Of a DNA stretch of 64,000 nucleotides, positions 5,486-54,985 are shown one piece after another; within the stretch, counting starts at the first letter, position 1; each line of letters starts with the position of its first letter. Origin of the DNA: Escherichia phage vB_EcoM_G8; the sequence record NC_054915.1. One strand, written 5' to 3'. Position numbers and translations under genes: made by a program. The notes beneath the pieces were generated by a model, which saw nothing but the letters and a program-made list of their open reading frames with translations, did no database searches and was not told where the DNA came from.

Positions 5486-6151
5486 TTAAAATTTCATTTT
5501 TCGACCTTTAAACCATCCTTCTGGAATTGGGTCAGTTTTCTTAATACGTTTAGAAACTTTTTCATCTAATGAATGAATCCACATCATACCAAATTGAGAA
5601 TTCTTTTCGCCCTGTTGGTGTTTATTTCTGGCGTGAGATTCTTTCATTTTATTAATAGTTTCAGGAGTATGGGTCTTACCCAAGAAAGATTTAGTATTTA
5701 AAAATTTCTCTCTATACTCAGAATTATCCCAAAGCTGTTTAAACCTTTCTGAACCCATTTTACGATATTTTTCTTTAAGGTCTGGGTCGTTCTCAAATCT
5801 GGTTTTAAAAGCGGCAGCTCCTTTTAAGGAAGCTTCTTTCTTTTTATCCAAATATTCTTTAGTGTTTAAATGGTCCCAACCACCTTCACCACCTAATTTC
5901 AAATTATAAACATCAGGGCGCTTTAAAAACTCTTCAGTCACAATATTCTTTTCTGACTCAAACATAGAGGTTTTATCGTCAAAGAACTCTAATATTTCTT
6001 TAGAAAAATTTTCTATACCATACTTATCTTGGGCTCTTTTTAATAATTTACCAGAACCCATATATCCATCATCTAAATTTTCGGTAGAATGAGCGCCTAT
6101 ATAGATTTTATTATTAATTTTATTTGTTATTTTATAAGTGTAATGGAACAT
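5486..6151 (-). CDS. segB: GIY-YIG homing endonuclease
   Basis: 221 aa; N-terminal YTYKITNKINNKIYIGAHS...YMGSGK GIY-YIG motif; sits between tRNA-Arg and tRNA-Ile as T4 segB does. Confidence 0.85.
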   Translation of the reverse strand: MFHYTYKITNKINNKIYIGAHSTENLDDGYMGSGKLLKRAQDKYGIENFSKEILEFFDDKTSMFESEKNIVTEEFLKRPDVYNLKLGGEGGWDHLNTKEYLDKKKEASLKGAAAFKTRFENDPDLKEKYRKMGSERFKQLWDNSEYREKFLNTKSFLGKTHTPETINKMKESHARNKHQQGEKNSQFGMMWIHSLDEKVSKRIKKTDPIPEGWFKGRKMKF

Positions 6152-8169: not shown

Positions 8170-8866
<697 letters not shown>

Positions 8867-8867
<1 letters not shown>

Positions 8868-9592
8868 TATAGTACCTTTAGTGTATTTTTAATTTTAGAA
8901 AAAAGTTCTTCAAGAGAACCATCATTTGTAATTACTAAATCGCCATCACGAATTGGCAATCCAGCTTCTGTAATATGTGTATCATTGGATTTTTGACCAG
9001 GACGAACTACATGAATTACTGTAGCACCCATCGCCCTAGCCGCATCCATTTCATGATCTTGACGGGTATCAGGAACGATATAATAATCATAACCTGATTT
9101 AAATTTATCAAGATAATCTAAAGCAAATAATTTTACCCAGTACATGCGGTCGAAGTTATTAACAATCAAATCCGTACCTAGGGCTTGCATCAGACGACGG
9201 ACTGACCATTGATCTTCAATATTATTTATAACGTCAATAATCTTATTAAATGCTACGGAATTAACTGATTCTTGTCCTTCGTCATCAAAAACAAACACAC
9301 CCTTAATTGGGCTTTTACCGTTAAGATAGCAAAATGCTTGTTCCATAATCGTGATTACTTCTGATTTAGTCAGATTTAAATTAGTCTCACGATCATAGTC
9401 AATTCCTTCAAACTCTTTACGAGTTAAGCAAGGATAGTCAGTGTTTTCTGCAAATACGCCCCATGCATAAGCCAATGCATCCTTAATAGGACCAGCAAGT
9501 TGGTATTTAACTGCAGAATAATTACTCATGATAAAATCAGCAGTAGTATCTTTTCCACTACGCTTTACACCGCTTAAAAAGATTAGTTTCAT
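8867..9592 (-). CDS. 1: deoxynucleoside monophosphate kinase
   Basis: 241 aa from Met MKLIFLSGVKRSGKDT (P-loop); GAGGAGA RBS; the ORF-track start at 9631 is an upstream extension. Confidence 0.85.
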
Positions 9593-10278: not shown

Positions 10279-11103
10279 TTAGATATTTGACCAGACTTTG
10301 TTTGCAGAGAAACGTTTTCCTTTTGAAACGAACTGCTGAAGTGGCATCAACACAACGTTCGCCCAGTCTTTCGGGGCGATTTCAACAAGGCTACCCATAA
10401 TATTACCAGGTATATATGCCTTAATCATTTGGTCTGCACCCCTAAATCCTTTCACTTGACTCCAATCAATTTTTAATTTCGTTTTATTAGTAATAGTAGG
10501 TGTATTTGCATATTGCTTTAAAAGCTCTTCTAGGAATTGCTGACGAGCTTTAGGTGGAATATAGTGCAAGTTTAATCCGTACATTAAATTATGCTTACCT
10601 AAACCAAGGTAAATTATCAAAGGAAATTTATCCCAATAAGGAAGAGTTTCCTTGTGTTTAGCATCATAAGCAAAAGCATATATTCGTCCCGGCTGCGGGC
10701 GAACAACTTTATGTCCTTTTACTTGCTTGATAGTTTCAGCAAACCACTTTCTGGTTTTATTATTAATTGCTGCACCTTCATTACGAATTTTATCACGCAA
10801 TGTTTGTCTGAATGAATTTATCATAAGCAGTTGTCTTTCTTGCTTATTGAGTTTATTCATTGGTTTTGATTCAAGCTTTTGAATCTTTTCGGCTGTTTTA
10901 ATTCCTGAAGCATATTTTGACATTGCTGAAGTAAACGTAGAGTATTTGATTCCTCTTTCTTCAGCAAATTGCTTTCCTGTCATTCCTTTTGCTTTGGCCT
11001 TTTTATATTCAAGACCTATTTGAATCCATTTCTTTTCGTTTAATGATTGCTTAACCTTTGGAACTTGGGGAGTGCTTTCATTAATTATTTGAAAAATAGC
11101 CAT
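10279..11103 (-). CDS. 2: DNA end-protector protein gp2
   Basis: 274 aa, basic; size and order match T4 gp2. Confidence 0.8.
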
Positions 11104-11555
11104 TATGCCCCCTTAAAGCCAAGAGCTCGTAATCCATCTTCTGTTAGAATTCTAAATTTTATTCCACGCTTTTCAGCTAAAGATTGTGCTGCTTTCCATT
11201 TATCAGTGTTCACAGACCAGGTATAAATTTCATTCATAAATCTTTTCTTCGCTGCAGTTGTTAGATGCGCTGGTTTAACTGGTGGTTGTGTTTCTTTTTT
11301 AGGTTTTATTTCAATAAAAAATTCTTGTCCAGAAGAATCTTTCATCCAAATATCCATGAAGTATCTACGTTTTTTCCCTTCTGCATTACAAAAATAAGGA
11401 ATTACTGCTGTTTCACTACCCCATGCAATAATTTCTGGATTTTTATCTAACCATTCAAAAAAGAATTTTTCCCAATTTGATCTATACGTAATTTTTTTAG
11501 GGTCACCTCTATACTTTGATATATTTTTAGGAACCCATTTTCCAGAATATGCCAT
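11103..11555 (-). CDS. 4: head completion protein gp4
   Basis: 150 aa; size and order match T4 gp4. Confidence 0.8.
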
Positions 11556-11566
11556 TGGATTCTCCT

Positions 11567-11574
11567 TATAAATA
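11567..11574 (+). promoter_or_regulatory. late promoter TATAAATA upstream of gene 53
   Basis: Exact TATAAATA about 30 nt upstream of the gene 53 ATG. Confidence 0.55.
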
Positions 11575-11582
11575 GATAATAT

Positions 11583-11590
11583 ATTTATAA
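11583..11590 (-). promoter_or_regulatory. late promoter (TATAAATA on minus strand) upstream of gene 4
   Basis: Plus strand TATTTATA about 28 nt upstream of the gene 4 start; divergent partner of the gene 53 promoter. Confidence 0.5.
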
Positions 11591-11602
11591 ACAGGAGGGC
11601 CC

Positions 11603-12193
11603 ATGCTCTTTACATTTTTTGATCCGATTGAATATGCGGCCAAAACGGTGAATAAAAACGCGCCGACTATTCCTATGACAGATATTTTTAGAAACTATAA
11701 AGACTATTTTAAACGTGCTCTTGCGGGATACCGCTTACGTACTTATTATATCAAAGGTTCACCACGCCCGGAAGAATTAGCAAATGCTATATATGGAAAT
11801 CCGCAGTTGTATTGGGTTTTATTGATGTGTAATGATAATTATGATCCGTATTATGGATGGATTACTTCACAAGAAGCAGCTTATCAAGCATCTATACAAA
11901 AATACAAAAATGTAGGTGGAGACCAAATAGTATATCATGTGAATGAGAACGGTGAAAAATTTTATAATTTAATATCATACGATGATAATCCATATGTTTG
12001 GTATGATAAAGGCGATAAAGCTAGAAAATATCCTCAATATGAAGGAGCACTTGCTGCGGTCGATACGTATGAAGATGCTGTTCTTGAAAATGAAAAACTT
12101 CGTCAAATAAAAATAATAGCAAAATCAGACATTAATTCATTTATGAACGACCTTATACGTATAATGGAGAAATCTTATGGAAATGATAAGTAA
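11603..12193 (+). CDS. 53: baseplate wedge protein gp53
   Basis: 196 aa; precedes gene 5 with a 17-nt overlap. Confidence 0.85.
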   Translation: MLFTFFDPIEYAAKTVNKNAPTIPMTDIFRNYKDYFKRALAGYRLRTYYIKGSPRPEELANAIYGNPQLYWVLLMCNDNYDPYYGWITSQEAAYQASIQKYKNVGGDQIVYHVNENGEKFYNLISYDDNPYVWYDKGDKARKYPQYEGALAAVDTYEDAVLENEKLRQIKIIAKSDINSFMNDLIRIMEKSYGNDK

Positions 12194-13949
12194 TAACCTT
12201 AATTGGTTTGTTGGTGTTGTTGAAGATAGAATGGACCCATTAAAATTAGGTCGTGTTCGTGTTCGTGTGGTTGGTTTGCATCCACCTCAAAGAGCACAAG
12301 GCGATGTAATGGGTATTCCAACTGAAAAATTACCATGGATGTCAGTTATTCAACCTATAACTTCTGCAGCAATGTCTGGAATTGGAGGTTCTGTTACTGG
12401 ACCGGTAGAAGGAACTAGAGTTTATGGTCATTTTTTGGACAAATGGAAAACTAACGGAATTGTCCTTGGCACTTATGGCGGAATAGTTCGCGAAAAGCCT
12501 AATAGACTTGAAGGATTTTCTGACCCAACTGGGCAATATCCTAGACGTTTAGGAAATGATACTAACGTACTAAACCAAGGCGGAGAAGTAGGATATGATT
12601 CGTCTTCTAACATTATCCAAGATAGTAACTTAGACACTGCAATAAATCCCGATGATAGACCACTATCAGAGATTCCAACCGATGACAATCCAAATATGTC
12701 AATGGCTGAAATGCTTCGCCGTGATGAAGGATTAAGATTAAAAGTTTATTGGGATACCGAAGGATATCCGACAATTGGTATTGGTCATCTTATCATGAAG
12801 CAGCCAGTTCGTGATATGGCTCAAATTAATAAAGTTTTATCAAAACAAGTTGGTCGTGAAATTACAGGAAATCCAGGTTCTATTACAATGGAAGAGGCGA
12901 CGACTTTATTTGAGCGTGATTTGGCTGATATGCAACGTGACATTAAATCACATTCTAAAGTAGGACCAGTCTGGCAAGCTGTCAACCGTTCTCGTCAAAT
13001 GGCGTTAGAAAATATGGCATTTCAGATGGGTGTTGGCGGTGTAGCTAAATTTAACACAATGTTAACTGCTATGTTAGCTGGAGATTGGGAAAAAGCGTAT
13101 AAAGCCGGTCGTGATTCATTGTGGTATCAACAAACAAAAGGCCGTGCATCCCGTGTTACCATGATTATTCTTACGGGGAATTTGGAATCATATGGTGTTG
13201 AAGTGAAAACCCCAGCTAGGTCTCTATCAGCAATGGCTGCTACTGTAGCTAAATCTTCTGACCCTGCTGATCCTCCTATTCCAAATGACTCGAGAATTTT
13301 ATTCAAAGAACCAGTTTCTTCATATAAAGGTGAATATCCTTATGTGCATACAATGGAAACTGAAAGCGGACATATTCAGGAATTTGATGATACCCCTGGG
13401 CAAGAACGATATAGATTAGTTCATCCAACTGGAACTTATGAAGAAGTATCACCATCAGGAAGAAGAACAAGAAAAACTGTTGATAATTTGTATGATATAA
13501 CCAACGCTGATGGTAATTTTTTGGTAGCCGGTGATAAAAAGACTAACGTCGGTGGATCAGAAATTTATTACAACATGGATAATCGTTTACATCAAATCGA
13601 TGGAAGCAATACGATATTTGTTCGAGGAGATGAAACGAAAACTGTTGAAGGTAATGGAACTATCCTAGTTAAAGGTAATGTTAAAGTAGTTATTCAAGGA
13701 ACAGCAGATATAACCGTTGAACAGGAAGCATACATAACTGTTGAAAAAGACACGACTGTTAATGTTAACCAAAACGCAGACATAAGTGTTAAAAATAAAG
13801 CAACTGTTAATGCTGAAAATATGGATGTCAACGTTGAGCAAGATTTAAATTTTTCAGCGACAAATATTAATTTAAGTGCATCTAATACTGTTCATATGGA
13901 TGGCGGGGTTCTTTCTAAAGTATCAGGTGGAAACGTACAGGTTGGTTAA
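12177..13949 (+). CDS. 5: baseplate central spike / tail-associated lysozyme gp5
   Basis: 590 aa; N-terminus MEMISNNLNWFVGVVEDRMDPLKLGRVRV (OB domain); internal lysozyme domain GLRLKVYWDTEGYPTIGIGHL; C-terminal beta-helix repeats. Confidence 0.9.
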   Translation: MEMISNNLNWFVGVVEDRMDPLKLGRVRVRVVGLHPPQRAQGDVMGIPTEKLPWMSVIQPITSAAMSGIGGSVTGPVEGTRVYGHFLDKWKTNGIVLGTYGGIVREKPNRLEGFSDPTGQYPRRLGNDTNVLNQGGEVGYDSSSNIIQDSNLDTAINPDDRPLSEIPTDDNPNMSMAEMLRRDEGLRLKVYWDTEGYPTIGIGHLIMKQPVRDMAQINKVLSKQVGREITGNPGSITMEEATTLFERDLADMQRDIKSHSKVGPVWQAVNRSRQMALENMAFQMGVGGVAKFNTMLTAMLAGDWEKAYKAGRDSLWYQQTKGRASRVTMIILTGNLESYGVEVKTPARSLSAMAATVAKSSDPADPPIPNDSRILFKEPVSSYKGEYPYVHTMETESGHIQEFDDTPGQERYRLVHPTGTYEEVSPSGRRTRKTVDNLYDITNADGNFLVAGDKKTNVGGSEIYYNMDNRLHQIDGSNTIFVRGDETKTVEGNGTILVKGNVKVVIQGTADITVEQEAYITVEKDTTVNVNQNADISVKNKATVNAENMDVNVEQDLNFSATNINLSASNTVHMDGGVLSKVSGGNVQVG

Positions 13950-13950
13950 T

Positions 13951-15987
13951 ATGAATTATAACGAAATTGTTGATGAATTAGTTGATACCATACAATCAGC
14001 TTGTTCAATTATTCCCGAAGGTTATTATAGACGAGTTAAATGGGAATTATACAATCCCAATAAAGAAATGATTCAACCCGATAATGGGGTTGAATGGGAC
14101 ACTGAAATTATTAAATTAGATACCCATCTTTACACCGAAAATCCATTTGGTCATTCTTCTGATACATTTACTGAATCATCTGATGGAGAAACCCAAACTG
14201 GCGTTTTTTGTCATAAAATCGGCGTGTATTTTCCAACTCAAACTGCGTTAGAAGATTACGTTGAACAAATTGGTGCAACTTTACTTCCGGGTAATACTTG
14301 GTATGGCGCTGATTTATCGAAACGTGAATTTTTTAAAACTGAAATTGAATATGATATATATCGCATTGAAAATCGCGGAGGTACATGGCATCATACGGGT
14401 CCTAGAATAGATGCTAGGACAATGATCGGTGTTAACAATGACTATACAATGTATGTTAACTTTAACGGTTTAGGAGATTATCGAAGAGCATATTTAAAAT
14501 ATTATGAAGATAAACCATGTACATATGTCGGTTTAACACTAAATTTAAATATAGATACATCAATTCCCGGTATTCCTTATTCACCTCCATCAATTATTGG
14601 AGAGCTTCCACTTAATGCAATTTCATGCGTTAATTTTACTGCCCAATTTCCATACAATGGCTTAACATCTGCAATTATTGAGGCTTGGAACACCTCAAGA
14701 GATTCATTTAAACTATATTGGGATATGTTGCCTGGTATGCCGGCAATTAGCGGAAGTGATTTCGAAAAATATTTTAATTCGGCATATACACATTTATCTG
14801 TAGCAATGGAAGAGCTTGGAAATTCGGCAATTGCTATGTGTCAATATGTTCAGCAACAAGCCTTTATGGTTTTTAAAAATTCTGTTTCACAAGTTCTAAA
14901 TATTGTCGGTGGCGGATGGGATTTATTAAAAAGTTTTTTACCTAAAATAACAATAATGGGCATATCTATTGATATTGAAGATTTATGTACATCAACAGAT
15001 GGTGTTCAAAAATTGAAGGAAACCTTTAAAAATTTTAATCTGGAAGATACTATTAGTTCAATTTATTCTGCAATGGGTTCTGCATATGACTATTCTATAG
15101 AACGCGTTAAAATGTATTCGCGGGATTTAGTTGATGCAATAACAGATTTATATGATTGGGCCTGGTCAAAATTAATGATGGCCGGTGTCGCTTTATCAAA
15201 ATTATGTGTTGATTTAGCACAAATCTGGAGCATGCCACCAATTATTCCAAATCCAGTGTGGTCTGTTATCACTTTAGTGAAGGAAATGATGAAACAAATT
15301 CCTCCATTAGATATGATTATGTCAGGTAATTTTCCTGGATTTACTGCTTCTGATGTATATCAGATGGTTATGTCTATCGTATCTGAAAAAATTAAACAAG
15401 TTTATACTGAAATAGAATCATTAAAAACCCAAGCATTGGATGTATGGAATGAAATTAAACTAAAAACACAGGAATATAAAAAGCAAACGATTGAATTTAA
15501 ACAATATTTATCAGGAATGGCTGAAAAGGTTGAAGATGAAATAACTATAGCAAAAGAGAAAGCATTACAAGAAGCTGAATCCGCTTTAAATGTTTTAAAG
15601 GATAAATATAACAGTATTAAAGACTTAATAAAAAATAAGCAGATTTCTGTGTCTGATGTATTAGATTTAGCTTTGACTGAATTTCGAAAAATTCCATTAA
15701 TTTCACAAATGGAATCATTATTATCTTTAGCTGGAGCATCTATCGATGATATAATGAAAGTATATGAAAATAGCGTTACTAAAGCAAAATCATTATATCA
15801 CGAATTCACCGATGGCGCTCGGTCAATGAAAGATCTATGCAAATCATTATACAATCAAATTTCGACTTTATGTTTGAGTAAGGTTGTGCAATGGATTAAT
15901 AAAATGCTTGGAATATTTGGATTAAGTATTACATTTCCAACAGTATCAATATGCATTCCATGCTTAAAAACTCCTATGAGGAATTAA
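13951..15987 (+). CDS. large hypothetical protein of unknown function between genes 5 and 6
   Basis: 678 codons from ATG at 13951, 1 nt after the gene 5 stop; stop 1 nt before the gene 6 ATG; C-terminal third coiled-coil-rich with a hydrophobic, Cys-containing tail; no motif I recognise. Confidence 0.7.
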   Translation: MNYNEIVDELVDTIQSACSIIPEGYYRRVKWELYNPNKEMIQPDNGVEWDTEIIKLDTHLYTENPFGHSSDTFTESSDGETQTGVFCHKIGVYFPTQTALEDYVEQIGATLLPGNTWYGADLSKREFFKTEIEYDIYRIENRGGTWHHTGPRIDARTMIGVNNDYTMYVNFNGLGDYRRAYLKYYEDKPCTYVGLTLNLNIDTSIPGIPYSPPSIIGELPLNAISCVNFTAQFPYNGLTSAIIEAWNTSRDSFKLYWDMLPGMPAISGSDFEKYFNSAYTHLSVAMEELGNSAIAMCQYVQQQAFMVFKNSVSQVLNIVGGGWDLLKSFLPKITIMGISIDIEDLCTSTDGVQKLKETFKNFNLEDTISSIYSAMGSAYDYSIERVKMYSRDLVDAITDLYDWAWSKLMMAGVALSKLCVDLAQIWSMPPIIPNPVWSVITLVKEMMKQIPPLDMIMSGNFPGFTASDVYQMVMSIVSEKIKQVYTEIESLKTQALDVWNEIKLKTQEYKKQTIEFKQYLSGMAEKVEDEITIAKEKALQEAESALNVLKDKYNSIKDLIKNKQISVSDVLDLALTEFRKIPLISQMESLLSLAGASIDDIMKVYENSVTKAKSLYHEFTDGARSMKDLCKSLYNQISTLCLSKVVQWINKMLGIFGLSITFPTVSICIPCLKTPMRN

Positions 15988-15988
15988 A

Positions 15989-17968
15989 ATGACAACTCCT
16001 GTAAATTATCAATTAACAAGAACAGCAAATGCTATTCCCGAGATATTCGTCGGGGGTACGTTTGCTGAAATAAAACAAAACCTCATTGAATGGCTTAATG
16101 GCCAAAATGAATTTTTGGATTATGATTTTGAAGGCTCAAGATTAAACGTTCTGTGTGACCTTTTGGCTTATAATACGCTGTACATTCAACAGTTTGGTAA
16201 TGCTGCTGTGTATGAAAGCTTTATGCGTACTGCTAACTTACGAAGTTCAGTTGTTCAAGCTGCACAAGATAACGGATATTTACCTACTTCAAAATCCGCT
16301 GCGCAGACTGAAATTATGTTAACATGCACTGACGCATTGAATAGGAATTACATTACAATTCCTCGCGGAACTCGCTTTTTAGCATATGCAAAAGATACTT
16401 CTGTTAATCCATATAACTTCGTTTCTACCGAAGACGTTATTGCTATTCGTGATAAAAATAACCAATATTTTCCACGTTTAAAATTGGCTCAGGGACGTAT
16501 AGTAAGAACTGAAATCATTTATGATAAATTAACACCTATTATCATTTATGATAAAAATATTGATAGAAACCAGGTTAAATTATATGTTGATGGAGCGGAA
16601 TGGATTAACTGGACAAGAAAGTCAATGGTTCATGCTGGTTCAACATCAACGATTTACTATATGCGTGAAACTATTGATGGAAACACTGAATTCTATTTTG
16701 GCGAAGGTGAAATTTCTGTTAATGCTTCTGAAGGAGCTTTGACCGCTAATTATATCGGAGGTCTTAAACCTACTCAGAACTCTACGATTGTTATTGAGTA
16801 CATCAGTACTAATGGTGCTGACGCGAACGGAGCAGTCGGATTTTCATATGCAGATACATTAACAAATATAACTGTCATCAATATTAATGAAAATCCAAAC
16901 GACGACCCAGATTTTGTCGGAGCAGATGGCGGCGGTGATCCAGAAGATATTGAGCGTATTCGCGAATTGGGTACTATTAAACGCGAAACCCAGCAACGCT
17001 GCGTAACTGCAACTGACTATGATACATTCGTTTCAGAAAGATTTGGTTCTATTATTCAAGCAGTTCAGACTTTCACTGATTCTACTAAACCTGGTTATGC
17101 ATTTATTGCTGCTAAACCTAAATCAGGTCTGTATTTAACTACCGTACAGCGTGAAGATATTAAAAATTATCTCAAAGACTATAATTTAGCTCCTATTACA
17201 CCATCAATTATTTCTCCTAATTATCTTTTTATTAAGACTAATTTAAAAGTCACATATGCTTTAAATAAACTACAAGAATCCGAACAGTGGCTCGAAGGTC
17301 AAATAATTGATAAAATTGATCGTTATTATACCGAAGATGTAGAAATTTTTAACTCATCTTTCGCTAAATCTAAGATGTTGACATATGTAGATGATGCAGA
17401 TCATTCTATCATTGGTTCATCAGCGACAATTCAAATTGTTCGTGAAGTACAAAACTTCTATAAAACGCCTGAAGCAGGTATTAAATACAATAATCAAATA
17501 AAAGATCGTTCTATGGAATCTAATACGTTTTCATTTAATTCTGGACGAAAGGTTGTAAATCCTGATACTGGTTTAGAAGAAGATGTATTATATGACGTTC
17601 GCATAGTATCAACAGACCGAGATTCTAAAGGAATTGGTAAAGTTATTATTGGTCCATTTGCTTCTGGCGATGTTACAGAAAATGAAAACATTCAGCCGTA
17701 TACAGGCAACGATTTTAACAAATTAGCAAATTCTGATGGACGCGACAAATACTATGTTATCGGTGAAATAAATTATCCGGCTGACATGATTTATTGGAAT
17801 ATCGCTAAAATTAATTTAACATCTGAAAAATTTGAAGCTCAGACTATTGAATTATATTCTGACCCAACCGATGATGTTATCTTTACTCGCGATGGTTCAC
17901 TGATTGTATTTGAAAATGACTTACGTCCACAATACTTAACTATCGATTTGGAGCCTATATCACAATGA
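15989..17968 (+). CDS. 6: baseplate wedge protein gp6
   Basis: 659 aa; GAGGAA RBS; size and order. Confidence 0.9.
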   Translation: MTTPVNYQLTRTANAIPEIFVGGTFAEIKQNLIEWLNGQNEFLDYDFEGSRLNVLCDLLAYNTLYIQQFGNAAVYESFMRTANLRSSVVQAAQDNGYLPTSKSAAQTEIMLTCTDALNRNYITIPRGTRFLAYAKDTSVNPYNFVSTEDVIAIRDKNNQYFPRLKLAQGRIVRTEIIYDKLTPIIIYDKNIDRNQVKLYVDGAEWINWTRKSMVHAGSTSTIYYMRETIDGNTEFYFGEGEISVNASEGALTANYIGGLKPTQNSTIVIEYISTNGADANGAVGFSYADTLTNITVININENPNDDPDFVGADGGGDPEDIERIRELGTIKRETQQRCVTATDYDTFVSERFGSIIQAVQTFTDSTKPGYAFIAAKPKSGLYLTTVQREDIKNYLKDYNLAPITPSIISPNYLFIKTNLKVTYALNKLQESEQWLEGQIIDKIDRYYTEDVEIFNSSFAKSKMLTYVDDADHSIIGSSATIQIVREVQNFYKTPEAGIKYNNQIKDRSMESNTFSFNSGRKVVNPDTGLEEDVLYDVRIVSTDRDSKGIGKVIIGPFASGDVTENENIQPYTGNDFNKLANSDGRDKYYVIGEINYPADMIYWNIAKINLTSEKFEAQTIELYSDPTDDVIFTRDGSLIVFENDLRPQYLTIDLEPISQ

Positions 17969-20900
17969 CAGTAAAAGCACCTTCAGTCACTAGTCTCAGA
18001 ATTTCCAAGTTATCCGCAAATCAGGTGCAAGTACGCTGGGATGACGTTGGTGCTAATTTCTACTATTTTGTAGAAATCGCTGAGACAAAAACAGACTCGG
18101 GGGAAAATCTCCCGAGTGATCAATATCGTTGGATTAATTTAGGGTATACAGCAAATAATAGTTTCTTTTTTGATGATGCTGATCCACTGACATCATATGT
18201 TATTAGAGTAGCTACGGCGGCTCAAGATTTTGAGCAGTCTGACTGGATTTATACCGAAGAGTTTGAAACTTTTGCTACGAATGCTTACACATTTCAAAAC
18301 ATGATTGAAATGCAATTAGCCAATAAATTCATTCAGGAAAAGTTCACTCTTAATAATTCTGATTATGTTAATTTTAATAATGACACCATAATGGCTGCAT
18401 TGATGAATGAATCATTCCAGTTCAGCCCATCGTATGTTGATGTCTCATCAATCAGTAATTTTATTATTGGTGAAAATGAGTATCATGAAATACAAGGTTC
18501 TATTCAGCAAGTATGTAAGGATATTAACCGAGTTTATTTGATGGAATCAGAAGGGATTCTATATCTTTTTGAGCGCTATCAACCCGTAGTTAAAGTATCC
18601 AATGATAAAGGACAAACTTGGAAAGCTGTAAAGCTCTTCAATGACCGCGTAGGATATCCTTTATCTAAGACTGTATATTACCAATCTGCAAACACAACAT
18701 ACGTTCTAGGATACGACAAGATTTTCTACGGCCGTAAATCTACTGATGTTAGATGGTCAGCTGATGATGTCAGATTTAGTTCACAGGATATAACATTTGC
18801 TAAACTTGGTGACCAATTGCATCTAGGATTTGATGTAGAAATTTTTGCCACTTATGCGACTTTACCAGCGAATGTATACCGCATTGCAGAAGCTATTACT
18901 TGCACGGATGATTATATCTATGTTGTTGCCAGAGATAAAGTTAGATACATAAAAACGAGTAATGCACCCATAGATTCTGATCCATTATCTCCAACATATT
19001 CGGAAAGACTTTTTGAACCTGACACAATGACTATAACCGGAAATCCTAAAGCAGTATGCTATAAAATGGATTCTATCGGTGATAAAGTTTTTGCTCTTAT
19101 TATTGGTGAAGTTGAAACATTAAATGCTAATCCGAGGACTTCAAAAATAATTGATTCTGCTGATAAAGGAATATATGTTTTAAATCATGACGAAAAAACG
19201 TGGAAAAGAGTTTTTGGTAATACCGAAGAAGAAAGAAGACGTATTCAACCCGGATATGCGAATATGTCAACTGATGGTAAATTAGTTTCTCTGTCTTCGA
19301 GTAATTTTAAATTTTTAAGTGATAATGTTGTTAATGACCCTGAAACTGCAGCAAAATATCAGTTAATTGGCGCTGTTAAATATGAATTTCCTCGTGAATG
19401 GTTAGCTGATAAGCATTATCATATGATGGCATTTATAGCGGATGAAACATCTGATTGGGAGACTTTTACTCCTCAACCAATGAAATACTACGCAGAACCG
19501 TTCTTTAACTGGTCTAAAAAATCTAACACACGTTGTTGGATAAACAACTCTGATAGAGCTGTAGTAGTTTATGCTGATTTAAAATACACCAAAGTTATAG
19601 AAAATATTCCGGAAACATCACCAGATAGATTAGTTCATGAATACTGGGATGATGGTGATTGTACTATAGTAATGCCAAATGTTAAATTCACTGGATTTAA
19701 AAAATACGCATCAGGAATGCTTTTCTATAAAGCCTCTGGTGAAATAATTTCTTACTATGATTTTAACTATCGTGTGAGAGATACAGTAGAAATTATTTGG
19801 AAGCCAACTGAAGTATTTTTAAAAGCATTTTTACAAAACCAAGAGCATGAGACTCCTTGGTCACCAGAAGAAGAGCGTGGACTAGCTGACCCCGATTTAA
19901 GACCATTAATTGGCACAATGATGCCTGATTCTTATTTGCTACAGGATTCGAATTTTGAAGCATTTTGCGAAGCATATATTCAGTATCTTTCTGATGGATA
20001 CGGAACTCAATACAATAATTTACGAAATTTAATTCGTAACAAATATCCACGAGAAAAGCATGCATGGGAATATTTGTGGTCAGAGATATATAAAAGAAAC
20101 ATTTATTTAAATGCTGATAAACGCGATGCTGTTACGAGATTCTTTGAATCACGTAGCTACGATTTTTATTCTACTAAAGGAATTGAAGCATCATACAAGT
20201 TTCTTTTTAAAGTTCTTTATAATGAAGAAGTTGAAATTGAAATTGAATCTGGGGCTGGTACTGAATATGACATAATCGTTCAATCTGATTCTTTAACTGA
20301 AGATTTAGTAGGACAAACGATTTATACGGCAACAGGAAGATGTAATGTTACTTATATAGAAAGAAGCTATTCTAATGGTAAATTGCAATGGACAGTAACT
20401 ATTCATAATCTTTTGGGAAGATTAATTGCTGGTCAAGAAGTTAAAGCAGAAAGACTCCCTAGTTTTGAAGGCGAAATTATTCGTGGGGTTAAAGGAAAGG
20501 ATTTGCTTCAAAACAATATAGACTATATTAATAGAAGTAGATCATACTATGTAATGAAAATTAAATCCAATTTACCTTCTTCCCGCTGGAAATCTGACGT
20601 TATTCGTTTTGTTCATCCGGTAGGATTTGGATTTATAGCAATTACACTTTTAACAATGTTTATTAATGTTGGTTTAACTCTTAAACACACAGAGACTATA
20701 ATTAATAAATACAAAAACTATAAATGGGATTCTGGATTGCCTACTGAATATGCTGATAGAGTAGCTAAATTGGCTCCAACTGGTGAAATTGAGCATGATT
20801 CGGTAACAGGCGAAGCAATTTATGAGCCTGGCCCAATGGCTGGTGTAAAATATCCTCTTCCTGATGACTATAATGCTGAAAATAATAATTCAATATTTCA

Positions 20901-21063: not shown

Positions 21064-22060
21064 TTCAAGTGTTATCTATCGTGCGATAGTTACTTCAAAA
21101 TTTAGAACAGAAAAAATGTTGAATTTTTATAATTCAATTGGAAGTGGTCCGGATAAAAACACTATCTTTATCACATTTGGAAGATCAGAACCGTGGTCAT
21201 CAAATGAAAATGAGGCGGGCTTTGCCCCGCCTTATCCCACTGATTCTGTATTAGGTGTAACTGACATGTGGACGCATATGATGGGAACAGTAAAAGTTCT
21301 TCCATCAATGCTTGATGCAGTTATTCCTCGTAGAGATTGGGGAGATACTCGATATCCTGATCCATACACATTTAGAATTAATGACATTGTAGTGTGTAAC
21401 TCAGCTCCTTACAACGCTACTGAATCAGGCGCAGGCTGGTTAGTATATCGTTGTTTAGATGTTCCTGATACCGGAATGTGTTCAATCGCATCTTTAACTG
21501 ATAAGGATGAATGCCTTAAATTGGGTGGAAAATGGACTCCTTCTGCTAGGTCAATGACTCCTCCTGAAGGTCGAGGAGATGCTGAAGGAACAATTGAACC
21601 TGGGGACGGGTATGTGTGGGAATATCTATTTGAGATTCCGCCTGATGTATCTATAAATAGATGCACGAATGAATATATCGTGGTTCCTTGGCCTGAGGAA
21701 TTAAAAGAAGACCCGACTAGATGGGGGTATGAAGATAATCTCACTTGGCAACAAGATGATTTTGGATTAATTTACCGTGTTAAGGCAAATACTATCCGTT
21801 TTAAAGCATATTTAGATTCAGTTTATTTTCCTGAAGCTGCATTGCCAGGAAATAAAGGATTTAGACAAATATCAATAATCACGAATCCTCTTGAAGCTAA
21901 AGCTCATCCAAATGACCCAAACGTTAAAGCTGAAAAGGATTATTATGATCCGGAAGATTTAATGAGGCATTCGGGCGAAATGATTTATATGGAAAATAGG
22001 CCACCTATTATCATGGCAATGGATCAAACAGAAGAAATCAATATTCTGTTTACATTTTAA
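21056..22060 (+). CDS. 8: baseplate wedge protein gp8
   Basis: 334 aa; size and order. Confidence 0.9.
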   Translation: MNDSSVIYRAIVTSKFRTEKMLNFYNSIGSGPDKNTIFITFGRSEPWSSNENEAGFAPPYPTDSVLGVTDMWTHMMGTVKVLPSMLDAVIPRRDWGDTRYPDPYTFRINDIVVCNSAPYNATESGAGWLVYRCLDVPDTGMCSIASLTDKDECLKLGGKWTPSARSMTPPEGRGDAEGTIEPGDGYVWEYLFEIPPDVSINRCTNEYIVVPWPEELKEDPTRWGYEDNLTWQQDDFGLIYRVKANTIRFKAYLDSVYFPEAALPGNKGFRQISIITNPLEAKAHPNDPNVKAEKDYYDPEDLMRHSGEMIYMENRPPIIMAMDQTEEINILFTF

Positions 22061-28528: not shown

Positions 28529-30230
<1,702 letters not shown>

Positions 30231-44392: not shown

Positions 44393-45529
44393 TTATGGAT
44401 AGGTATAGATGATACCAGTTTCTAAAGCAGTTTTATGAATGATGTATCCATTACGCGATTCTTGGACATCAACTTCTGGATAATCTTTCATCATCTTCTG
44501 GAGAGTGTAACGATGCAAGTAGTACTTACTATCTGGATCGTCAGTTTTCCAATCTTTACCTTCTTCAGTCATTTTTTGGATTTCATCCATAACCCACCAA
44601 CCGCACCAGATATAAGCTGAAGTACGATGTGGAAGAGGATGAACATAAGGTAATTCACCTTCTGGTTCTGGAGCAACTTTATCAGTTACCTGAACTTGAC
44701 CTGTTGCTGTAATAGTTTTGCTATCATAATCAGCAGCAGTAACAGTTGCAGTAACTTCAATAGTTTGACTTCCAATAGATGAGGTATCAACGGTATATAC
44801 ATTAGTTGACCCTTCTACAGGAGAAGAATCTTTCTTCCATGAATAAGCAATTTGTGCTTCTTCTGGTGCGCCAGTAACATTAGCAGTAAATGTAGCCGAA
44901 GCATCTTGTTGAACGTTAATAGAAGGAGGAGTCAATGTAACCTGTGGATTCATTGTCTTCTTATTAACCGTTAATGATACTTCATTAGAAGTAACTTCTT
45001 TTGCATCATAATCTGTCGCGGTTACTTGAGCTACACACTTGATTTTTTTAACTCCACTTATAGTTGGAGTATAGCTAAATGTAGAGTTAGTTTCTCCACC
45101 AACTTGTGAATCATCTACATACCACTGATACGTAGCAGACGCTCCAACGGGTTGAGAAGCTAAGGCAGCAGTAAATTCAACAGCTGTTCCGATTACGCCA
45201 GCATCAGGGCTACCAGGAGTTACGGCTAAAGTAGTTGTTTGTGTCTTATTTTGAACTGTGATAGTTGTAGTAGCTTCTGCTGTTTCAGCTTCAGCTTCAG
45301 CTTCTGGAACTGTATTTGTTGCAACTACTTTAATAGTCTTTTGACCGGCAGGTCCTTTTAATACATAATTAAAAGTTGCTGACGTTTCTTCCTGTTGAAC
45401 ATTATCTACGCTCCAAGCATAGGTAATAGTTCCACCTCCAGTTTCACCACTGGGTGTAGCAGTAAACTGCTGAGTCTGATCTATAACTCCAGTAGGTGTT
45501 TTAGGAGTTATATCAACTGTAAAAGTCAT
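44393..45529 (-). CDS. hoc: highly immunogenic outer capsid protein Hoc
   Basis: 378 aa; repeated Thr/Val-rich Ig-like segments; position before inh. Confidence 0.88.
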   Translation of the reverse strand: MTFTVDITPKTPTGVIDQTQQFTATPSGETGGGTITYAWSVDNVQQEETSATFNYVLKGPAGQKTIKVVATNTVPEAEAEAETAEATTTITVQNKTQTTTLAVTPGSPDAGVIGTAVEFTAALASQPVGASATYQWYVDDSQVGGETNSTFSYTPTISGVKKIKCVAQVTATDYDAKEVTSNEVSLTVNKKTMNPQVTLTPPSINVQQDASATFTANVTGAPEEAQIAYSWKKDSSPVEGSTNVYTVDTSSIGSQTIEVTATVTAADYDSKTITATGQVQVTDKVAPEPEGELPYVHPLPHRTSAYIWCGWWVMDEIQKMTEEGKDWKTDDPDSKYYLHRYTLQKMMKDYPEVDVQESRNGYIIHKTALETGIIYTYP

Positions 45530-52683: not shown

Positions 52684-53216
52684 AGAAGTTTCTATTCCTA
52701 AAATGGGTCTTAAACACTATAACATTTTAAAAGATGTTAAAGGTCCTGATGAAAATTTAAAACTTCTTATTGATTCTATTTGTCCGAATTTATCACCGGC
52801 AGAAGTTGATTTCGTTTCTATTCATTTATTGGAATTTAATGGAAAGATTAAATCTCGTAAAGAAATAGATGGCTATACTTATGACATTAATGATGTTTAT
52901 GTATGCCAAAGATTAGAATTTCAATGGCTATACTTATGACATTAATGATGTTTATGTATGCCAAAGATTAGAATTTCAATACCAAGGAAACACATTTTAT
53001 TTTAGACCTCCTGGAAAATTTGAACAATTTTTAACGGTGAGCGATATGTTATCTAAATGCTTACTTAAGGTCAATGATGAAGTTAAAGAAATTAATTTTC
53101 TTGAGATGCCAGCATTCGTTTTAAAATGGGCAAATGATATTTTTACAACTTTAGCAATTCCTGGCCCTAATGGTCCAATAACTGGAATTGGCAATATTAT
53201 TGGATTATTTGAATGA
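52628..53216 (+). pseudogene. 28: baseplate hub distal subunit gene 28, disrupted by a 55-bp tandem duplication
   Basis: N-terminal frame stops at TGA 52937-52939 after 103 codons, inside the second repeat copy; the remaining 78 codons are intact in the +1 frame and end at TGA 53214-53216 overlapping the gene 29 ATG. Confidence 0.85.
52871..52980 (+). repeat. perfect tandem direct duplication, 2 x 55 bp
   Basis: Unit GGCTATACTTATGACATTAATGATGTTTATGTATGCCAAAGATTAGAATTTCAAT at 52871-52925 and again at 52926-52980, 55/55 identical. Confidence 0.9.
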
Positions 53217-54985
53217 AAAAGCCACAAGAAATGCAAACGATGCGTAGAAAAGTTATTTCAGATAATAAACCAACACAGGAAGCGGCTAAATCCGCTTCCA
53301 ACACTTTATCTGGACTTAACGATATATCTACGAAATTGGATGATGCTCAAGCTGCTTCTGAATTAATTGCTCAAACTGTCGAAGAAAAATCGAATGAAAT
53401 AATTGGAGCAATTGACAATGTAGAAAGCGCAGTGAGTGATACTACTGCCGGTTCTGAGTTAATTGCTGAAACTGTCGAAATTGGCAACAATATTAATAAA
53501 GAAATCGGTGAATCACTCGGGAGCAAATTAGATAAATTAACAAGTTTACTAGAGCAAAAAATTCAGACAGCTGGAATTCAACAGACGGGAACTAGTTTAG
53601 CCACGGTTGAAAGCGCTATTCCTGTTAAAGTCGTTGAGGATGATACTGCCGAATCTGTGGGTCCTTTATTACCAGCTCCTGAAGCAGTTAATAATGATCC
53701 TGACGCTGATTTTTTCCCTACCCCTCAACCAGTTGAACCCAAACAAGAATCACCAGAAGAAAAACAGAAAAAAGAAGCATTTAACTTAAAATTATCACAA
53801 GCTTTAGATAAATTAACAAAGACAGTTGATTTTGGATTTAAGAAATCCATTTCAATTACTGATAAAATATCAAGCATGCTATTTAAGTACACCGTCAGTG
53901 CTGCTATTGAAGCCGCTAAAATGACTGCAATGATATTGGCTGTTGTTGTTGGAATAGATCTGTTGATGGTTCATTTTAAATACTGGTCAGATAAATTTTC
54001 AAAAGCCTGGGATTTATTTAATACTGACTTTACTAAATTCTCTAGCGAAACCGGAACGTGGGGTCCTTTATTACAGAGCATCTTTGGTTCTATTGATAAA
54101 ATTAAGAAGCTGTGGGAAGCTGGAGACTGGGGCGGATTGACAACAGCTATTGTCGAAGGACTTGGAAAGGTTCTTTTTAATTTAGGAGAGCTTATTCAAC
54201 TTGGAATGGCTAAATTATCTGCGGCAATTCTTCGAGTTATTCCTGGTATGAAGGATACTGCTGATGAAGTAGAAGGAAGAGCACTAGAAAATTTCCAAAA
54301 TACTACAAATGCTTCTCTTAGCAAAGAAGACCAAGAAAAAGTTGCAAATTATCAATATAAAAGAATGAATGGCGATCTTGGTCCAATAGCAAAAGGGCTA
54401 GACAAAATTGCGAACTGGAAAACTCGTGCATCTAACTGGATTCGTGGTGTTGATAATAAAGAAGCACTAACGACTGATGAAGAGAGAGCAGAGGAAGAAG
54501 AAAAATTAAAGCAACTTTCTCCGGAGGAAGCTAAAATTGCTTTAATGAAAGCTAATGAAGCTCGTGCTGCTATGAATCGTTTTGATGAATACGCTAATTC
54601 AGCTGATATGAGTAAAGACTCAACGGTTAAATCAGTTGAAGCTGCTTATGAAGATCTTAAAAAACGGATGGATGACCCGGATTTAAATAATTCACCGGCA
54701 GTTAAAAAAGAACTTGCTGCTAGATTTTCTAAAATTGATGCTACTTATCAAGAGCTCAAGAAAAATCAGCCTAATGCCAAACCTCAAACTTCTGCTAAAT
54801 CGCCAGAAGCGAAACAGGTCCAGGTTATTGAAAAGAACAAAGCACAGCAAGCTCCTGTTCAGCAAGCATCTCCTTCAATCAATAATACTAATAATGTTAT
54901 TAAGAAAAATACTGTCGTTCATAATATGACACCTGTCACAAGCACAACTGCTCCTGGTGTATTTGATGCGACTGGAGTTAATTAA
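53213..54985 (+). CDS. 29: tail tube length determinator (tape measure) gp29
   Basis: 590 aa; Ala/Glu-rich helical; size and order. Confidence 0.9.
   Translation: MKKPQEMQTMRRKVISDNKPTQEAAKSASNTLSGLNDISTKLDDAQAASELIAQTVEEKSNEIIGAIDNVESAVSDTTAGSELIAETVEIGNNINKEIGESLGSKLDKLTSLLEQKIQTAGIQQTGTSLATVESAIPVKVVEDDTAESVGPLLPAPEAVNNDPDADFFPTPQPVEPKQESPEEKQKKEAFNLKLSQALDKLTKTVDFGFKKSISITDKISSMLFKYTVSAAIEAAKMTAMILAVVVGIDLLMVHFKYWSDKFSKAWDLFNTDFTKFSSETGTWGPLLQSIFGSIDKIKKLWEAGDWGGLTTAIVEGLGKVLFNLGELIQLGMAKLSAAILRVIPGMKDTADEVEGRALENFQNTTNASLSKEDQEKVANYQYKRMNGDLGPIAKGLDKIANWKTRASNWIRGVDNKEALTTDEERAEEEEKLKQLSPEEAKIALMKANEARAAMNRFDEYANSADMSKDSTVKSVEAAYEDLKKRMDDPDLNNSPAVKKELAARFSKIDATYQELKKNQPNAKPQTSAKSPEAKQVQVIEKNKAQQAPVQQASPSINNTNNVIKKNTVVHNMTPVTSTTAPGVFDATGVN

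What the first reader, a model, noticed from the sequence alone, without database searches (positions are those of the whole stretch)
13951..15987. Single 678-codon ORF of unknown function between spike gene 5 and gene 6
The gene 5 stop and the gene 6 start are bridged by one ORF with 1-nt gaps on both sides and no promoter or terminator between, so it should be co-expressed late with the baseplate genes. As I recall T4, this interval holds several small ORFs (5.1-5.4, including the PAAR-like spike tip gp5.4, and the oriE-associated repEA/repEB), not one large gene. No small PAAR-like ORF is evident in this interval. The protein has a long coiled-coil C-terminal third and a hydrophobic Cys-containing tail (GIFGLSITFPTVSICIPCL). 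Its placement directly after the puncturing spike suggests a spike-associated structural or cargo protein, by analogy with VgrG-adjacent effectors in type VI secretion. That is inference only.
Basis: inference. Interest (0 to 1): 0.7.

Follow-up and report, generated by a model that had tools for sequence, protein, structure and literature searches.

The report
Large non-PAAR spike-tip gene cassette
In this close relative of phage T4, the small tip protein that caps the cell-puncturing spike has been swapped, together with the matching end of the spike, for a 678-residue protein related to the proposed RB43 tip protein and containing a domain with no known fold.

Summary
The ORF is real: 13951-15987 (+), 678 codons, with 1-nt gaps to gene 5 and gene 6, inside the late 53-5-ORF-6-7 transcription unit. 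It is not an orphan. It belongs to PHROG 5296 and is a full-length homologue (42% identity) of RB43 orf205w. A 2025 preprint tentatively proposes orf205w as a non-PAAR spike tip, based on a 17.7 Å map.

Homologues occur in 214 phage records, always directly after gene 5. The window matches T4 at 98% up to gene 5 codon 502 and again from the gene 6 start. The 2.3 kb between them replaces the gp5 tip, 5.1, segC, 5.3 and 5.4 (PAAR).

The same two alternative alleles segregate in Tequatrovirus and in Dhakavirus, each with its own type of gp5 C-terminus. No gene 5.4 is found in the window or in the whole genome of a close relative.

AlphaFold gives a confident model (pLDDT 88). The N-terminal domain has no PDB neighbour, followed by long helical hairpins and a conserved hydrophobic C-terminal strand.

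Best reading: it is a spike-tip protein that displaces PAAR. Direct proof that it is in the virion is lacking.

The parts
11567..11574 (+). T4-type late promoter box TATAAATA upstream of gene 53. The next one on the + strand is at 21652.
12177..13949 (+). Gene 5 (spike and tail lysozyme), 590 aa. Residues 1-502 are 99.8% identical to T4 gp5.
13683..13949 (+). Variant gp5 beta-helix tip (codons 503-590 plus the stop codon), ending ...DGGVLSKVSGGNVQVG. It is 89.8% identical to the tip of Dhakavirus E33 and 33% identical to the T4 tip.
13684..15978 (+). Replaced cassette of 2,295 bp with no nucleotide similarity to T4. It is flanked by 98.4% identity on the left and 96.8% on the right. It stands in for the T4 gp5 tip, 5.1, segC, 5.3 and 5.4.
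13951..15987 (+). The 678-codon ORF: a PHROG 5296 member, homologue of RB43 orf205w and putative non-PAAR spike-tip protein.
13951..14799 (+). N-terminal alpha/beta region (aa 1-283). The core, aa ~20-195, folds confidently on its own, holds most of the invariant residues and has no structural neighbour in the PDB.
14803..15915 (+). Helical region (aa 285-655) with long antiparallel hairpins. Residues 466-600 are the least conserved (35% identity). Residues 284-465 are the most conserved (58%).
15904..15969 (+). Conserved hydrophobic C-terminal segment (aa 652-673), predicted as a beta-strand. Its family-average hydropathy (19-residue Kyte-Doolittle window) is 1.77.
15989..17968 (+). Gene 6 (baseplate wedge). 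T4-like sequence resumes at about 15979.

Best explanation
The ORF encodes the spike-tip protein of this phage. It is a large, non-PAAR alternative to T4 gp5.4.

**Shown.**
- The ORF sits in the late 53-5-ORF-6-7 transcription unit, and its start lies one base after the gene 5 stop codon.
- It arrived as one cassette together with the last 88 codons of gene 5. The exchange points lie in sequence that T4, Dhakavirus and the window share: the gp5 beta-helix near codon 502 and the start of gene 6.
- Two alternative alleles exist at this locus. One has a T4-type gp5 end plus 5.1 and 5.4 (PAAR). The other has a gp5 end of the '...GGxVQVG' type plus this ORF.

**Inferred.**
- The cassette was exchanged by homologous recombination in those conserved flanks.
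- The protein is made together with gp5, probably by translational coupling.
- It binds the blunt C-terminal platform of the gp5 trimer, most likely through its highly conserved N-terminal domain. It then sits at the apex of the central spike under the baseplate.
- On sheath contraction it is the first part to meet the outer membrane, and it enters the periplasm with the gp5 beta-helix.

**Speculative.** Its long helical hairpins and conserved hydrophobic C-terminal segment then act on a membrane, or engage a periplasmic or inner-membrane partner, to help DNA entry. The number of copies per spike is not known.
For: **Homology and position.**
- Full-length match to PHROG 5296 (E = 0).
- 41.8% identity over 99% of the length to RB43ORF205w.
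- The preprint PMC12407873 reports that RB43, RB16 and Lw1 lack gene 5.4, that RB43 carries a larger density on its spike tip (17.7 Å map), and that orf205w is the proposed occupant.
- The gene lies directly after gene 5 in Tequatrovirus, Dhakavirus, Bragavirus, Slopekvirus and Pseudotevenvirus. It does so too in a 29%-identical metagenomic relative.

**Cassette exchange.**
- The window is 98.4% identical to T4 over 11001-13683 and 96.8% over 15979-19000, with no similarity in between.
- gp5 residues 1-502 are 99.8% identical to T4. The tip is 89.8% identical to Dhakavirus E33 and 33% to T4.
- All gp5 proteins of ORF-bearing phages examined end in ...GxLxKxxGxxVQVG, whereas T4 and QL01 end in ...TIDGSRIDIG.
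- About 522 records match the gene 5-6 flanks at 90% identity or more. Only 8 of them (6 phages) carry this cassette. Every flank-only record listed carries 5.1 and 5.4.
- In Dhakavirus, 12 records carry the ORF. QL01, JS98, JS10 and others, up to 98.9% identical in the flanks, carry 5.1 and 5.4. The breakpoints fall in the same places.

**No PAAR gene.** Gene 5.4 is absent from the window and from the whole F26 genome, by tblastn at E ≤ 10 and by HMM, with T4 as positive control.

**Expression and selection.**
- The only late promoter nearby lies upstream of gene 53.
- Differences from the closest relatives are mostly synonymous (9 of 12 and 5 of 7 changed codons).

**Structure.** A confident model was obtained with a 61-sequence alignment (pLDDT 87.9, pTM 0.79).
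Against: - There is no direct evidence that the protein is in the virion. I found no virion proteomics that detects a family member.
- The one T4-like mass-spectrometry table I read (Morganella MP1) did not detect gp5 either, and I did not check that MP1 carries the gene, so it is uninformative.
- The RB43 assignment in the preprint is explicitly tentative ('possibly'). Its map is at 17.7 Å, and co-expression with the gp5 beta-helix fragment failed.
- No complex could be modelled here, so the binding surface and copy number are guesses.
- Co-inheritance with the gp5 tip would also be expected for an assembly factor specific to that tip.
- The absence of 5.4 genome-wide was tested in F26, which is 97-98% identical to the window but not the same phage. 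The rest of this phage's genome is not in the window.
Confidence: 0.6

Rival explanations
1. It is an ejected membrane-active protein or cargo rather than a mere cap. It rides on the spike, and after penetration its helical hairpins refold into a membrane. There it would form or anchor a conduit for DNA, or act as an effector on the host envelope.
For: - A hydrophobic C-terminal segment is conserved across the family (family-average 19-residue Kyte-Doolittle hydropathy 1.77; 46 of 61 members reach 1.6).
- There is a conserved, moderately hydrophobic hairpin around residues 404-447 with a Pro-rich turn.
- The top PDB profile hit is the Hbl-B pore-forming toxin component, at a non-significant E of 0.013.
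- The protein is about seven times larger than a PAAR cap.
Against: - No sequence match is significant.
- AlphaFold places the C-terminal segment as a beta-strand within the fold, not as a free helix.
- No toxin or enzyme domain is found.
- This reading builds on the spike-tip reading rather than excluding it.
Confidence: 0.2
2. It is a non-virion assembly factor or chaperone specific for the variant gp5 beta-helix end. It would be co-inherited with that end because of specificity, but absent from the finished particle.
For: - The co-transfer with the gp5 tip fits a dedicated chaperone equally well.
- T4 has dedicated tail-assembly chaperones, and the preprint authors could not produce a stable complex with the beta-helix fragment.
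- There is no proteomic detection.
Against: - RB43 shows extra density exactly at the spike tip and has no PAAR gene to account for it.
- A 78 kDa, confidently folded multidomain protein is large for a chaperone of an 88-residue segment.
- It is mutually exclusive with the structural tip gene 5.4 in two genera.
Confidence: 0.12
3. It is a tail length tape measure protein, as some GenBank records annotate its homologues.
For: - Weak PHROG matches to tape-measure families (E 3.5e-5 to 1.3e-4).
- Automatic annotations in phages Roth22, Roth88, M26a and phi1_146007.
Against: - The same scan gives E = 0 to PHROG 5296 (unknown function), so the tape-measure hits are weak by comparison. They span the helix-rich part of the protein.
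- The true gp29 homologue (baseplate hub and tail length determinator, phrog_1283, E 4e-247) is present in the window at 53213-54985.
- Near-identical phages do without this ORF.
Confidence: 0.02
4. It is an accessory gene unrelated to the spike, for example for superinfection exclusion or anti-defence, that happens to occupy a variable region between genes 5 and 6.
For: - The T4 interval does hold mobile and accessory genes (segC, 5.1, 5.3).
- T4-like genomes have known hyperplastic regions.
- The function is untested.
Against: - The left breakpoint is inside gene 5, not in the intergenic space.
- The position is fixed across five genera plus a distant metagenomic relative.
- It sits in a late structural operon, one base downstream of the gene 5 stop codon.
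- It always excludes 5.4.
Confidence: 0.06

Closest known systems
RB43 orf205w (RB43ORF205w, YP_239181.1), the putative RB43 spike-tip protein (Mattenberger et al., bioRxiv 2025, PMC12407873)
   Same: - Full-length homologue: 41.8% identity over 99% of the length.
- Same position between genes 5 and 6.
- Same architecture: an alpha/beta N-terminal part followed by an all-helical remainder.
- Same type of gp5 C-terminus.
- No gene 5.4 in the genome.
   Different: - Here the gene sits in a true Tequatrovirus that is otherwise 97-98% identical to T4 around it, as a sharply bounded cassette.
- It is only 42% identical to the RB43 protein and 72.5% identical to the nearest sequenced lineage (Dhakavirus).
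- The RB43 function is itself only proposed.
T4 gp5.4, a PAAR-repeat spike-tip protein (PDB 4KU0, as given in PMC12407873)
   Same: - Same genomic slot just before gene 6.
- Mutually exclusive with it in two genera.
- Presumed same partner: the blunt end of the gp5 beta-helix.
   Different: - 97 aa versus 678 aa.
- No sequence or profile similarity (hhalign probability 0.1%).
- No PAAR Pfam match, whereas gp5.4 scores E 9e-10.
- The fold is not PAAR-like.
- The gp5 platform it goes with is different (33% identity, one extra strand's worth of length).
Fused spike-apex domains of P2 gpV and phi92 gp138 (HxH iron site)
   Same: They serve as the sharp end of a contractile-tail spike without a separate PAAR protein (background from PMC12407873).
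   Different: - Those are short C-terminal domains of the spike protein itself, with an HxH motif.
- Here the tip is a separate 78 kDa protein, and gp5 ends in a flat beta-helix with no HxH.
Extended PAAR proteins and VgrG-linked effectors of type VI secretion
   Same: The general idea of a large protein carried on the spike tip and delivered on contraction.
   Different: - No PAAR domain, no adaptor domain and no recognisable toxin domain.
- The N-terminal domain is found only in this one architecture among 1.84 billion representative proteins, so there is no sign of modular cargo swapping.
Helical-hairpin membrane proteins such as the type III secretion translocator IpaB (PDB 3U0C)
   Different: Identity is only 5-16%, and the hits are typical of any long hairpin. 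This is not evidence of homology or of shared function.

Membership tests
RB43 orf205w family / PHROG 5296 | Full-length sequence homology (~670-760 aa, same domain order) | tested here: met
   - PHROG 5296: E = 0, residues 1-673 aligned to profile positions 1-684 of 685.
- 41.8% identity over 99% of the length to the RB43 gene.
- 65 database clusters, nearly all 664-764 aa.
RB43 orf205w family / PHROG 5296 | Located immediately downstream of gene 5, in the baseplate gene block | tested here: met
RB43 orf205w family / PHROG 5296 | Partnered with a gp5 of the '...GGxVQVG' C-terminal type, in a genome without gene 5.4 | tested here: met
   - gp5 C-terminus type.
- 5.4 absent from the window and from the whole F26 genome.
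RB43 orf205w family / PHROG 5296 | Physically located on the spike tip of the virion | not testable with these tools
   Only a 17.7 Å map of RB43 exists. No solved structure of any relative is in the PDB.
PAAR-repeat superfamily | PAAR motif domain (Pfam PF05488) | tested here: not met
   - No PAAR hit for the window protein at E ≤ 1.
- PAAR is not among the 25 Pfam families listed (of 55) for the 61 members scanned.
- The T4 gp5.4 positive control scores 39 bits, E 9.4e-10.
- hhalign probability against gp5.4 is 0.1%.
PAAR-repeat superfamily | Small conical beta fold with a His/Cys metal site | tested here: not met
   - Foldseek finds nothing in the PDB at E < 0.1.
- Conserved Cys residues exist (C18, C190, C226, C668), but their geometry could not be examined.
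Tail length tape measure proteins | It is the single length-determining protein of the tail, homologous to gp29 in T4-like phages | tested here: not met
   - gp29 is present at 53213-54985 (phrog_1283, E 4e-247).
- Only weak tape-measure PHROG hits are found for the ORF.
T6SS-type spike cargo effectors | A recognisable toxin or enzyme domain, or a modular adaptor plus variable cargo | tested here: not met
   - Pfam and NCBIfam find no such domain (Pfam gives only weak coiled-coil-type hits), and the PDB sequence search has nothing significant.
- The N-terminal domain profile finds only the same architecture.
Alpha-helical pore-forming or translocator proteins (ClyA/Hbl, IpaB) | Significant sequence or fold similarity beyond a generic coiled-coil hairpin | tested here: inconclusive
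   - Hbl-B E 0.013.

The most novel reading that the evidence does not exclude
The protein is a new class of contractile-tail spike tip, built on an N-terminal fold with no known relative. It is not just a sharpener. It is delivered into the envelope, where its helical hairpins and hydrophobic C-terminus insert into a membrane to open or anchor the DNA path. On this reading, the PAAR-type and orf205w-type cassettes are interchangeable 'penetration modules'. They would set which cell envelopes a T4-like phage can breach, independently of its receptor-binding fibres.
Probability: 0.2. Interest if true: 0.8.

Novelty: new member of a known kind. Interest (0 to 1): 0.58.

Why it matters
How the spike tip of a contractile tail gets through the envelope, and what it does afterwards, is still open. 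The preprint reports that T4 gp5.4 is needed for DNA injection into deep-rough LPS mutants.

This locus offers natural, nearly isogenic pairs within T4's own genus and within Dhakavirus. The members of a pair differ essentially in which tip module they carry: a 97-aa PAAR cap or a 678-aa protein of unknown fold. That makes several questions directly testable with T4 genetics:
- how specific the tip-platform match is;
- what the tip contributes to host range;
- where the tip goes after injection.

It also corrects 'tape measure' annotations that are spreading in databases for this family.

Tried and rejected
**Searches that found nothing.**
- Pfam on the protein and on all 61 aligned relatives gave only coiled-coil noise.
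- NCBIfam found nothing.
- The PDB profile search found nothing significant.
- Foldseek against the PDB found nothing below E 0.1.
- hhalign of the family against T4 gp5.4 and gp5.1 showed no relationship. The ORF is therefore not a grown or fused version of the genes it replaces.

**Family breadth.** The N-terminal domain profile was run against 1.84 billion representative proteins to look for the domain joined to other cargo. It returned only 12 hits, 11 of them from this family. The twelfth (P0070) is a repetitive artefact.

**Virion proteomics.** I searched the literature for detection of a family member and found none.
- The KP15/KP27 paper has no mass spectrometry.
- The ValerieMcCarty Klebsiella phages belong to another genus (Jiaodavirus).
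- vB_EcRAM-01 has only SDS-PAGE.
- The Morganella MP1 table lacks gp5 itself, so it says nothing.

**Rejected reading.** The tape-measure idea was rejected because gp29 is present.

**Limits.** I could not inspect model coordinates. Whether the four conserved cysteines cluster, and which strands pair with the C-terminal strand, remain unknown.
Full report
**1.

One search lists a single open frame, 13876..15987, on the + strand. The ATG at 13951 gives 678 codons beginning MNYNEIV, and all homologues start at the same point. The gene 5 stop (TAA, 13947-13949) is followed by one base and then this ATG. The ORF stop (TAA, 15985-15987) is followed by one base and then the gene 6 ATG at 15989.

T4-type late promoter boxes (TATAAATA) on the + strand lie at 11567, just before gene 53, and next at 21652. 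No + strand terminator-like site lies between genes 5 and 6. The ORF is therefore an internal cistron of the late 53-5-ORF-6-7 unit, and its start lies one base after the gene 5 stop codon.

In T4 the same interval holds 5.1, segC, 5.3 and 5.4, the last annotated as PAAR. repEB, repEA and oriE lie inside gene 5 on the other strand, not in the interval.

**2. What the window is**

The neighbourhood is a Tequatrovirus: genes 3, 2, 4, 53, 5, 6, 7 and 8 in T4 order. It is 98.4% identical to T4 over 11001-13683 and 96.8% over 15979-19000. The closest records over the ORF are phages vB_Eco_F26, SG1, BYEP01, JEP6, PD112 and sutha, at 99.3-99.7%. The window is not F26 itself. It is 97-98% identical overall, with several indels.

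**3. The ORF belongs to a conserved family that has been flagged but not characterised**

- It matches PHROG 5296 (function unknown) end to end, with E = 0.
- tblastn finds it in 214 phage records:
  - 72% identity in a subset of Dhakavirus (Bp7, WG01, SP18, E33 and others);
  - 60% in Salmonella phage KM16;
  - about 55% in the Proteus and Providencia phages;
  - 41-46% in RB43, RB16, Lw1, Citrobacter Miller, the KP15/KP27 Slopekviruses and Cronobacter phages.
- The large protein database adds 65 clusters, nearly all 664-764 aa.
- The RB43 copy is RB43ORF205w.

The preprint by Mattenberger et al. (PMC12407873) states the following:
- RB43, RB16 and Lw1 have no gene 5.4.
- orf205w occupies the 5.1-5.4 locus.
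- orf205w is about 690 residues, with an alpha/beta N-terminal 220 residues and a helical remainder.
- A 17.7 Å reconstruction shows a larger body on the RB43 spike tip.
- The authors' attempt to produce the complex failed, and their AlphaFold model had low confidence.

**4. New evidence from this window: a cassette swap that includes the end of the spike**

The window's gp5 is 99.8% identical to T4 gp5 through residue 502 and then diverges completely. At the DNA level, identity ends at 13683 and resumes at about 15979, ten bases before the gene 6 start. The replaced segment is 2,295 bp. It encodes the last 88 residues of gp5 plus the ORF. It stands in for T4's last 73 gp5 residues plus 5.1, segC, 5.3 and 5.4.

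The new gp5 tip is 89.8% identical to the tip of Dhakavirus E33, although the rest of gp5 is only 66% identical to E33.

Every ORF-bearing phage examined has a gp5 ending in ...D(S/G)GxLxKxxGxxVQVG (window, E33, PM2, KP15, RB43). A 29%-identical metagenomic relative ends in ...FTGGTVSVG. T4 and QL01 end in ...TIDGSRIDIG.

**5. The two alleles segregate within two genera**

A megablast of gene 5 + ORF + gene 6 finds 649 records, about 522 of them at 90% identity or more. Only 8 records, representing 6 phages, contain the middle part. Every other record listed matches the flanks only and is annotated with 5.1 and 5.4/PAAR, plus segC in the T4 records.

The same test with Dhakavirus E33 finds 12 records with the ORF. 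QL01, PSD9, JS98, JS10, MX01, IME08 and others are up to 98.9% identical in the flanks but carry 5.1 and 5.4. Between E33 and QL01, identity stops near gp5 codon 519 and resumes 11 bases before gene 6. These are the same breakpoints as in the window.

The two cassettes are thus alternative, mutually exclusive alleles, each with its own gp5 end. The likely mechanism is recombination in the conserved beta-helix repeats and the conserved start of gene 6. This pattern is what one expects if the downstream protein docks on the gp5 C-terminal platform.

**6. No PAAR gene elsewhere**

T4 gp5.4 and gp5.1 give no tblastn hit at E ≤ 10 in the window or in the complete F26 genome (L008-L011). T4 serves as the positive control. 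An HMM built from the T4 and QL01 gp5.4 sequences, run with filters off against all six-frame ORFs, finds only the T4 control.

Pfam detects PAAR in T4 gp5.4 (E 9.4e-10). It detects none in the ORF and none among the families listed for its 60 aligned relatives. Profile comparison of the family with gp5.4 and with gp5.1 gives probabilities of 0.1% and 0.5%.

**7. Structure**

With a 61-sequence alignment, AlphaFold2 gives a confident model (mean pLDDT 87.9, pTM 0.79). It has three parts:
- an alpha/beta region to about residue 283;
- a helical region with long helices at 285-319, 389-426, 466-520, 529-566 and 622-655;
- a C-terminal beta-strand at 664-673.

Modelled alone, residues ~20-195 remain above pLDDT 90, while 198-283 lose confidence. 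The autonomous N-terminal domain is therefore about 195 residues, and the next ~90 residues lean on the rest of the protein.

Fold comparisons gave no informative match:
- Foldseek against the PDB finds nothing (best E 0.11).
- The PDB profile search has no significant hit, so no relative has a solved structure.

Most invariant residues lie in the N-terminal 210 residues, for example W117, G119, A120, D121, K124, E133, Y137, E140, N141 and G143. The coiled-coil stretch 466-600 is the least conserved, at 35%.

The C-terminal hydrophobic segment is conserved as a property. Its family-average hydropathy, over a 19-residue Kyte-Doolittle window, is 1.77, and 46 of 61 members reach 1.6. C18 and C190 are invariant, and C226 and C668 are 95% conserved.

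The N-terminal domain profile, searched against 1.84 billion representative proteins, finds only 12 proteins. Eleven are members or fragments of this family, and the twelfth is a repeat artefact. The domain is not a shared adaptor for varied cargo.

**8. Interpretation**

The best-supported reading is that this is the spike-tip protein of the phage, functionally displacing PAAR gp5.4.

*Shown:* the homology to orf205w, the fixed position, the late-operon context, the cassette boundaries, the co-variation with the gp5 end, the mutual exclusion with 5.4, and the lack of any PAAR or other known domain.

*Inferred:* binding to the gp5 platform, presence in the virion, and entry into the periplasm.

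*Speculative:* a membrane-active role for the helical hairpins and the hydrophobic C-terminus.

Rivals:
- An assembly factor specific for the variant gp5 end remains possible, because there is no virion proteomics for any family member.
- The 'tape measure' label found in some GenBank records is wrong. The gp29 homologue is in the window at 53213-54985.
- An unrelated accessory gene is unlikely, given the breakpoint inside gene 5.

**9. Novelty and score**

The family and its probable role were pointed out in a 2025 preprint, so this is a new member of a known, still unproven, kind.

This analysis adds:
- the finding that the gene occurs in T4's own genus as a rare allele (about 1.5% of records);
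- the repeated, sharply bounded swap that carries the gp5 tip with it;
- a confident model;
- the absence of any structural neighbour for the N-terminal domain.

Interest is moderate to fairly high (0.58). A specialist would not be astonished. However, the near-isogenic allele pairs make the role of spike tips directly testable.

Noticed in passing
window 5861-6148 (-): A stretch encoding a SegC-like GIY-YIG homing-endonuclease fragment (55% identity to T4 SegC over 96 aa, E 5e-32). It lies outside the 5-6 interval, in a region that has no megablast match to T4 or F26. T4's segC copy between genes 5 and 6 is lost with the cassette swap.
   Followed up: no
window ~13303-13573: The repEA frame and the position equivalent to T4 oriE (about 13573, by coordinate offset from T4) are retained. 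They lie only about 110 bp upstream of the left recombination breakpoint at 13683. Whether origin activity favours exchange here is unknown.
   Followed up: partly
window 13951-15987, residues C18, C190, C226, C668: Four cysteines are conserved in 95-100% of 61 family members. One is in the N-terminus, two are in the alpha/beta region and one is in the C-terminal strand. They could form a metal site, as in other phage spike tips, but the coordinates could not be inspected. The most distant relative (P0068) appears to lack the C226 equivalent.
   Followed up: partly
homologues in GenBank (Klebsiella phages Roth22, Roth88 and phi1_146007; Raoultella phage M26a): These records annotate the family as 'tail length tape measure protein'. 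This probably stems from weak PHROG tape-measure hits to the helical region. The real gp29 homologue is at window 53213-54985.
   Followed up: yes
window 29436-29456 versus F26 96352-97181: F26 carries an HNH endonuclease gene between neck genes 13 and 14 that is absent from the window. Several other indels separate the two (for example window 44668-45527 and 58119-59106), so the window comes from a different isolate of this allele group.
   Followed up: partly
L013 (QL01) 2576-2869 versus L002 (T4) 8780-9070: gp5.4 is about 95% identical between T4 and Dhakavirus QL01. By contrast, the bulk of gp5 is about 66% identical between a T4-type sequence and Dhakavirus E33, whose gp5 is 99% identical to QL01's. 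The PAAR-type tip module is far more conserved than the spike body and may itself move between genera.
   Followed up: no
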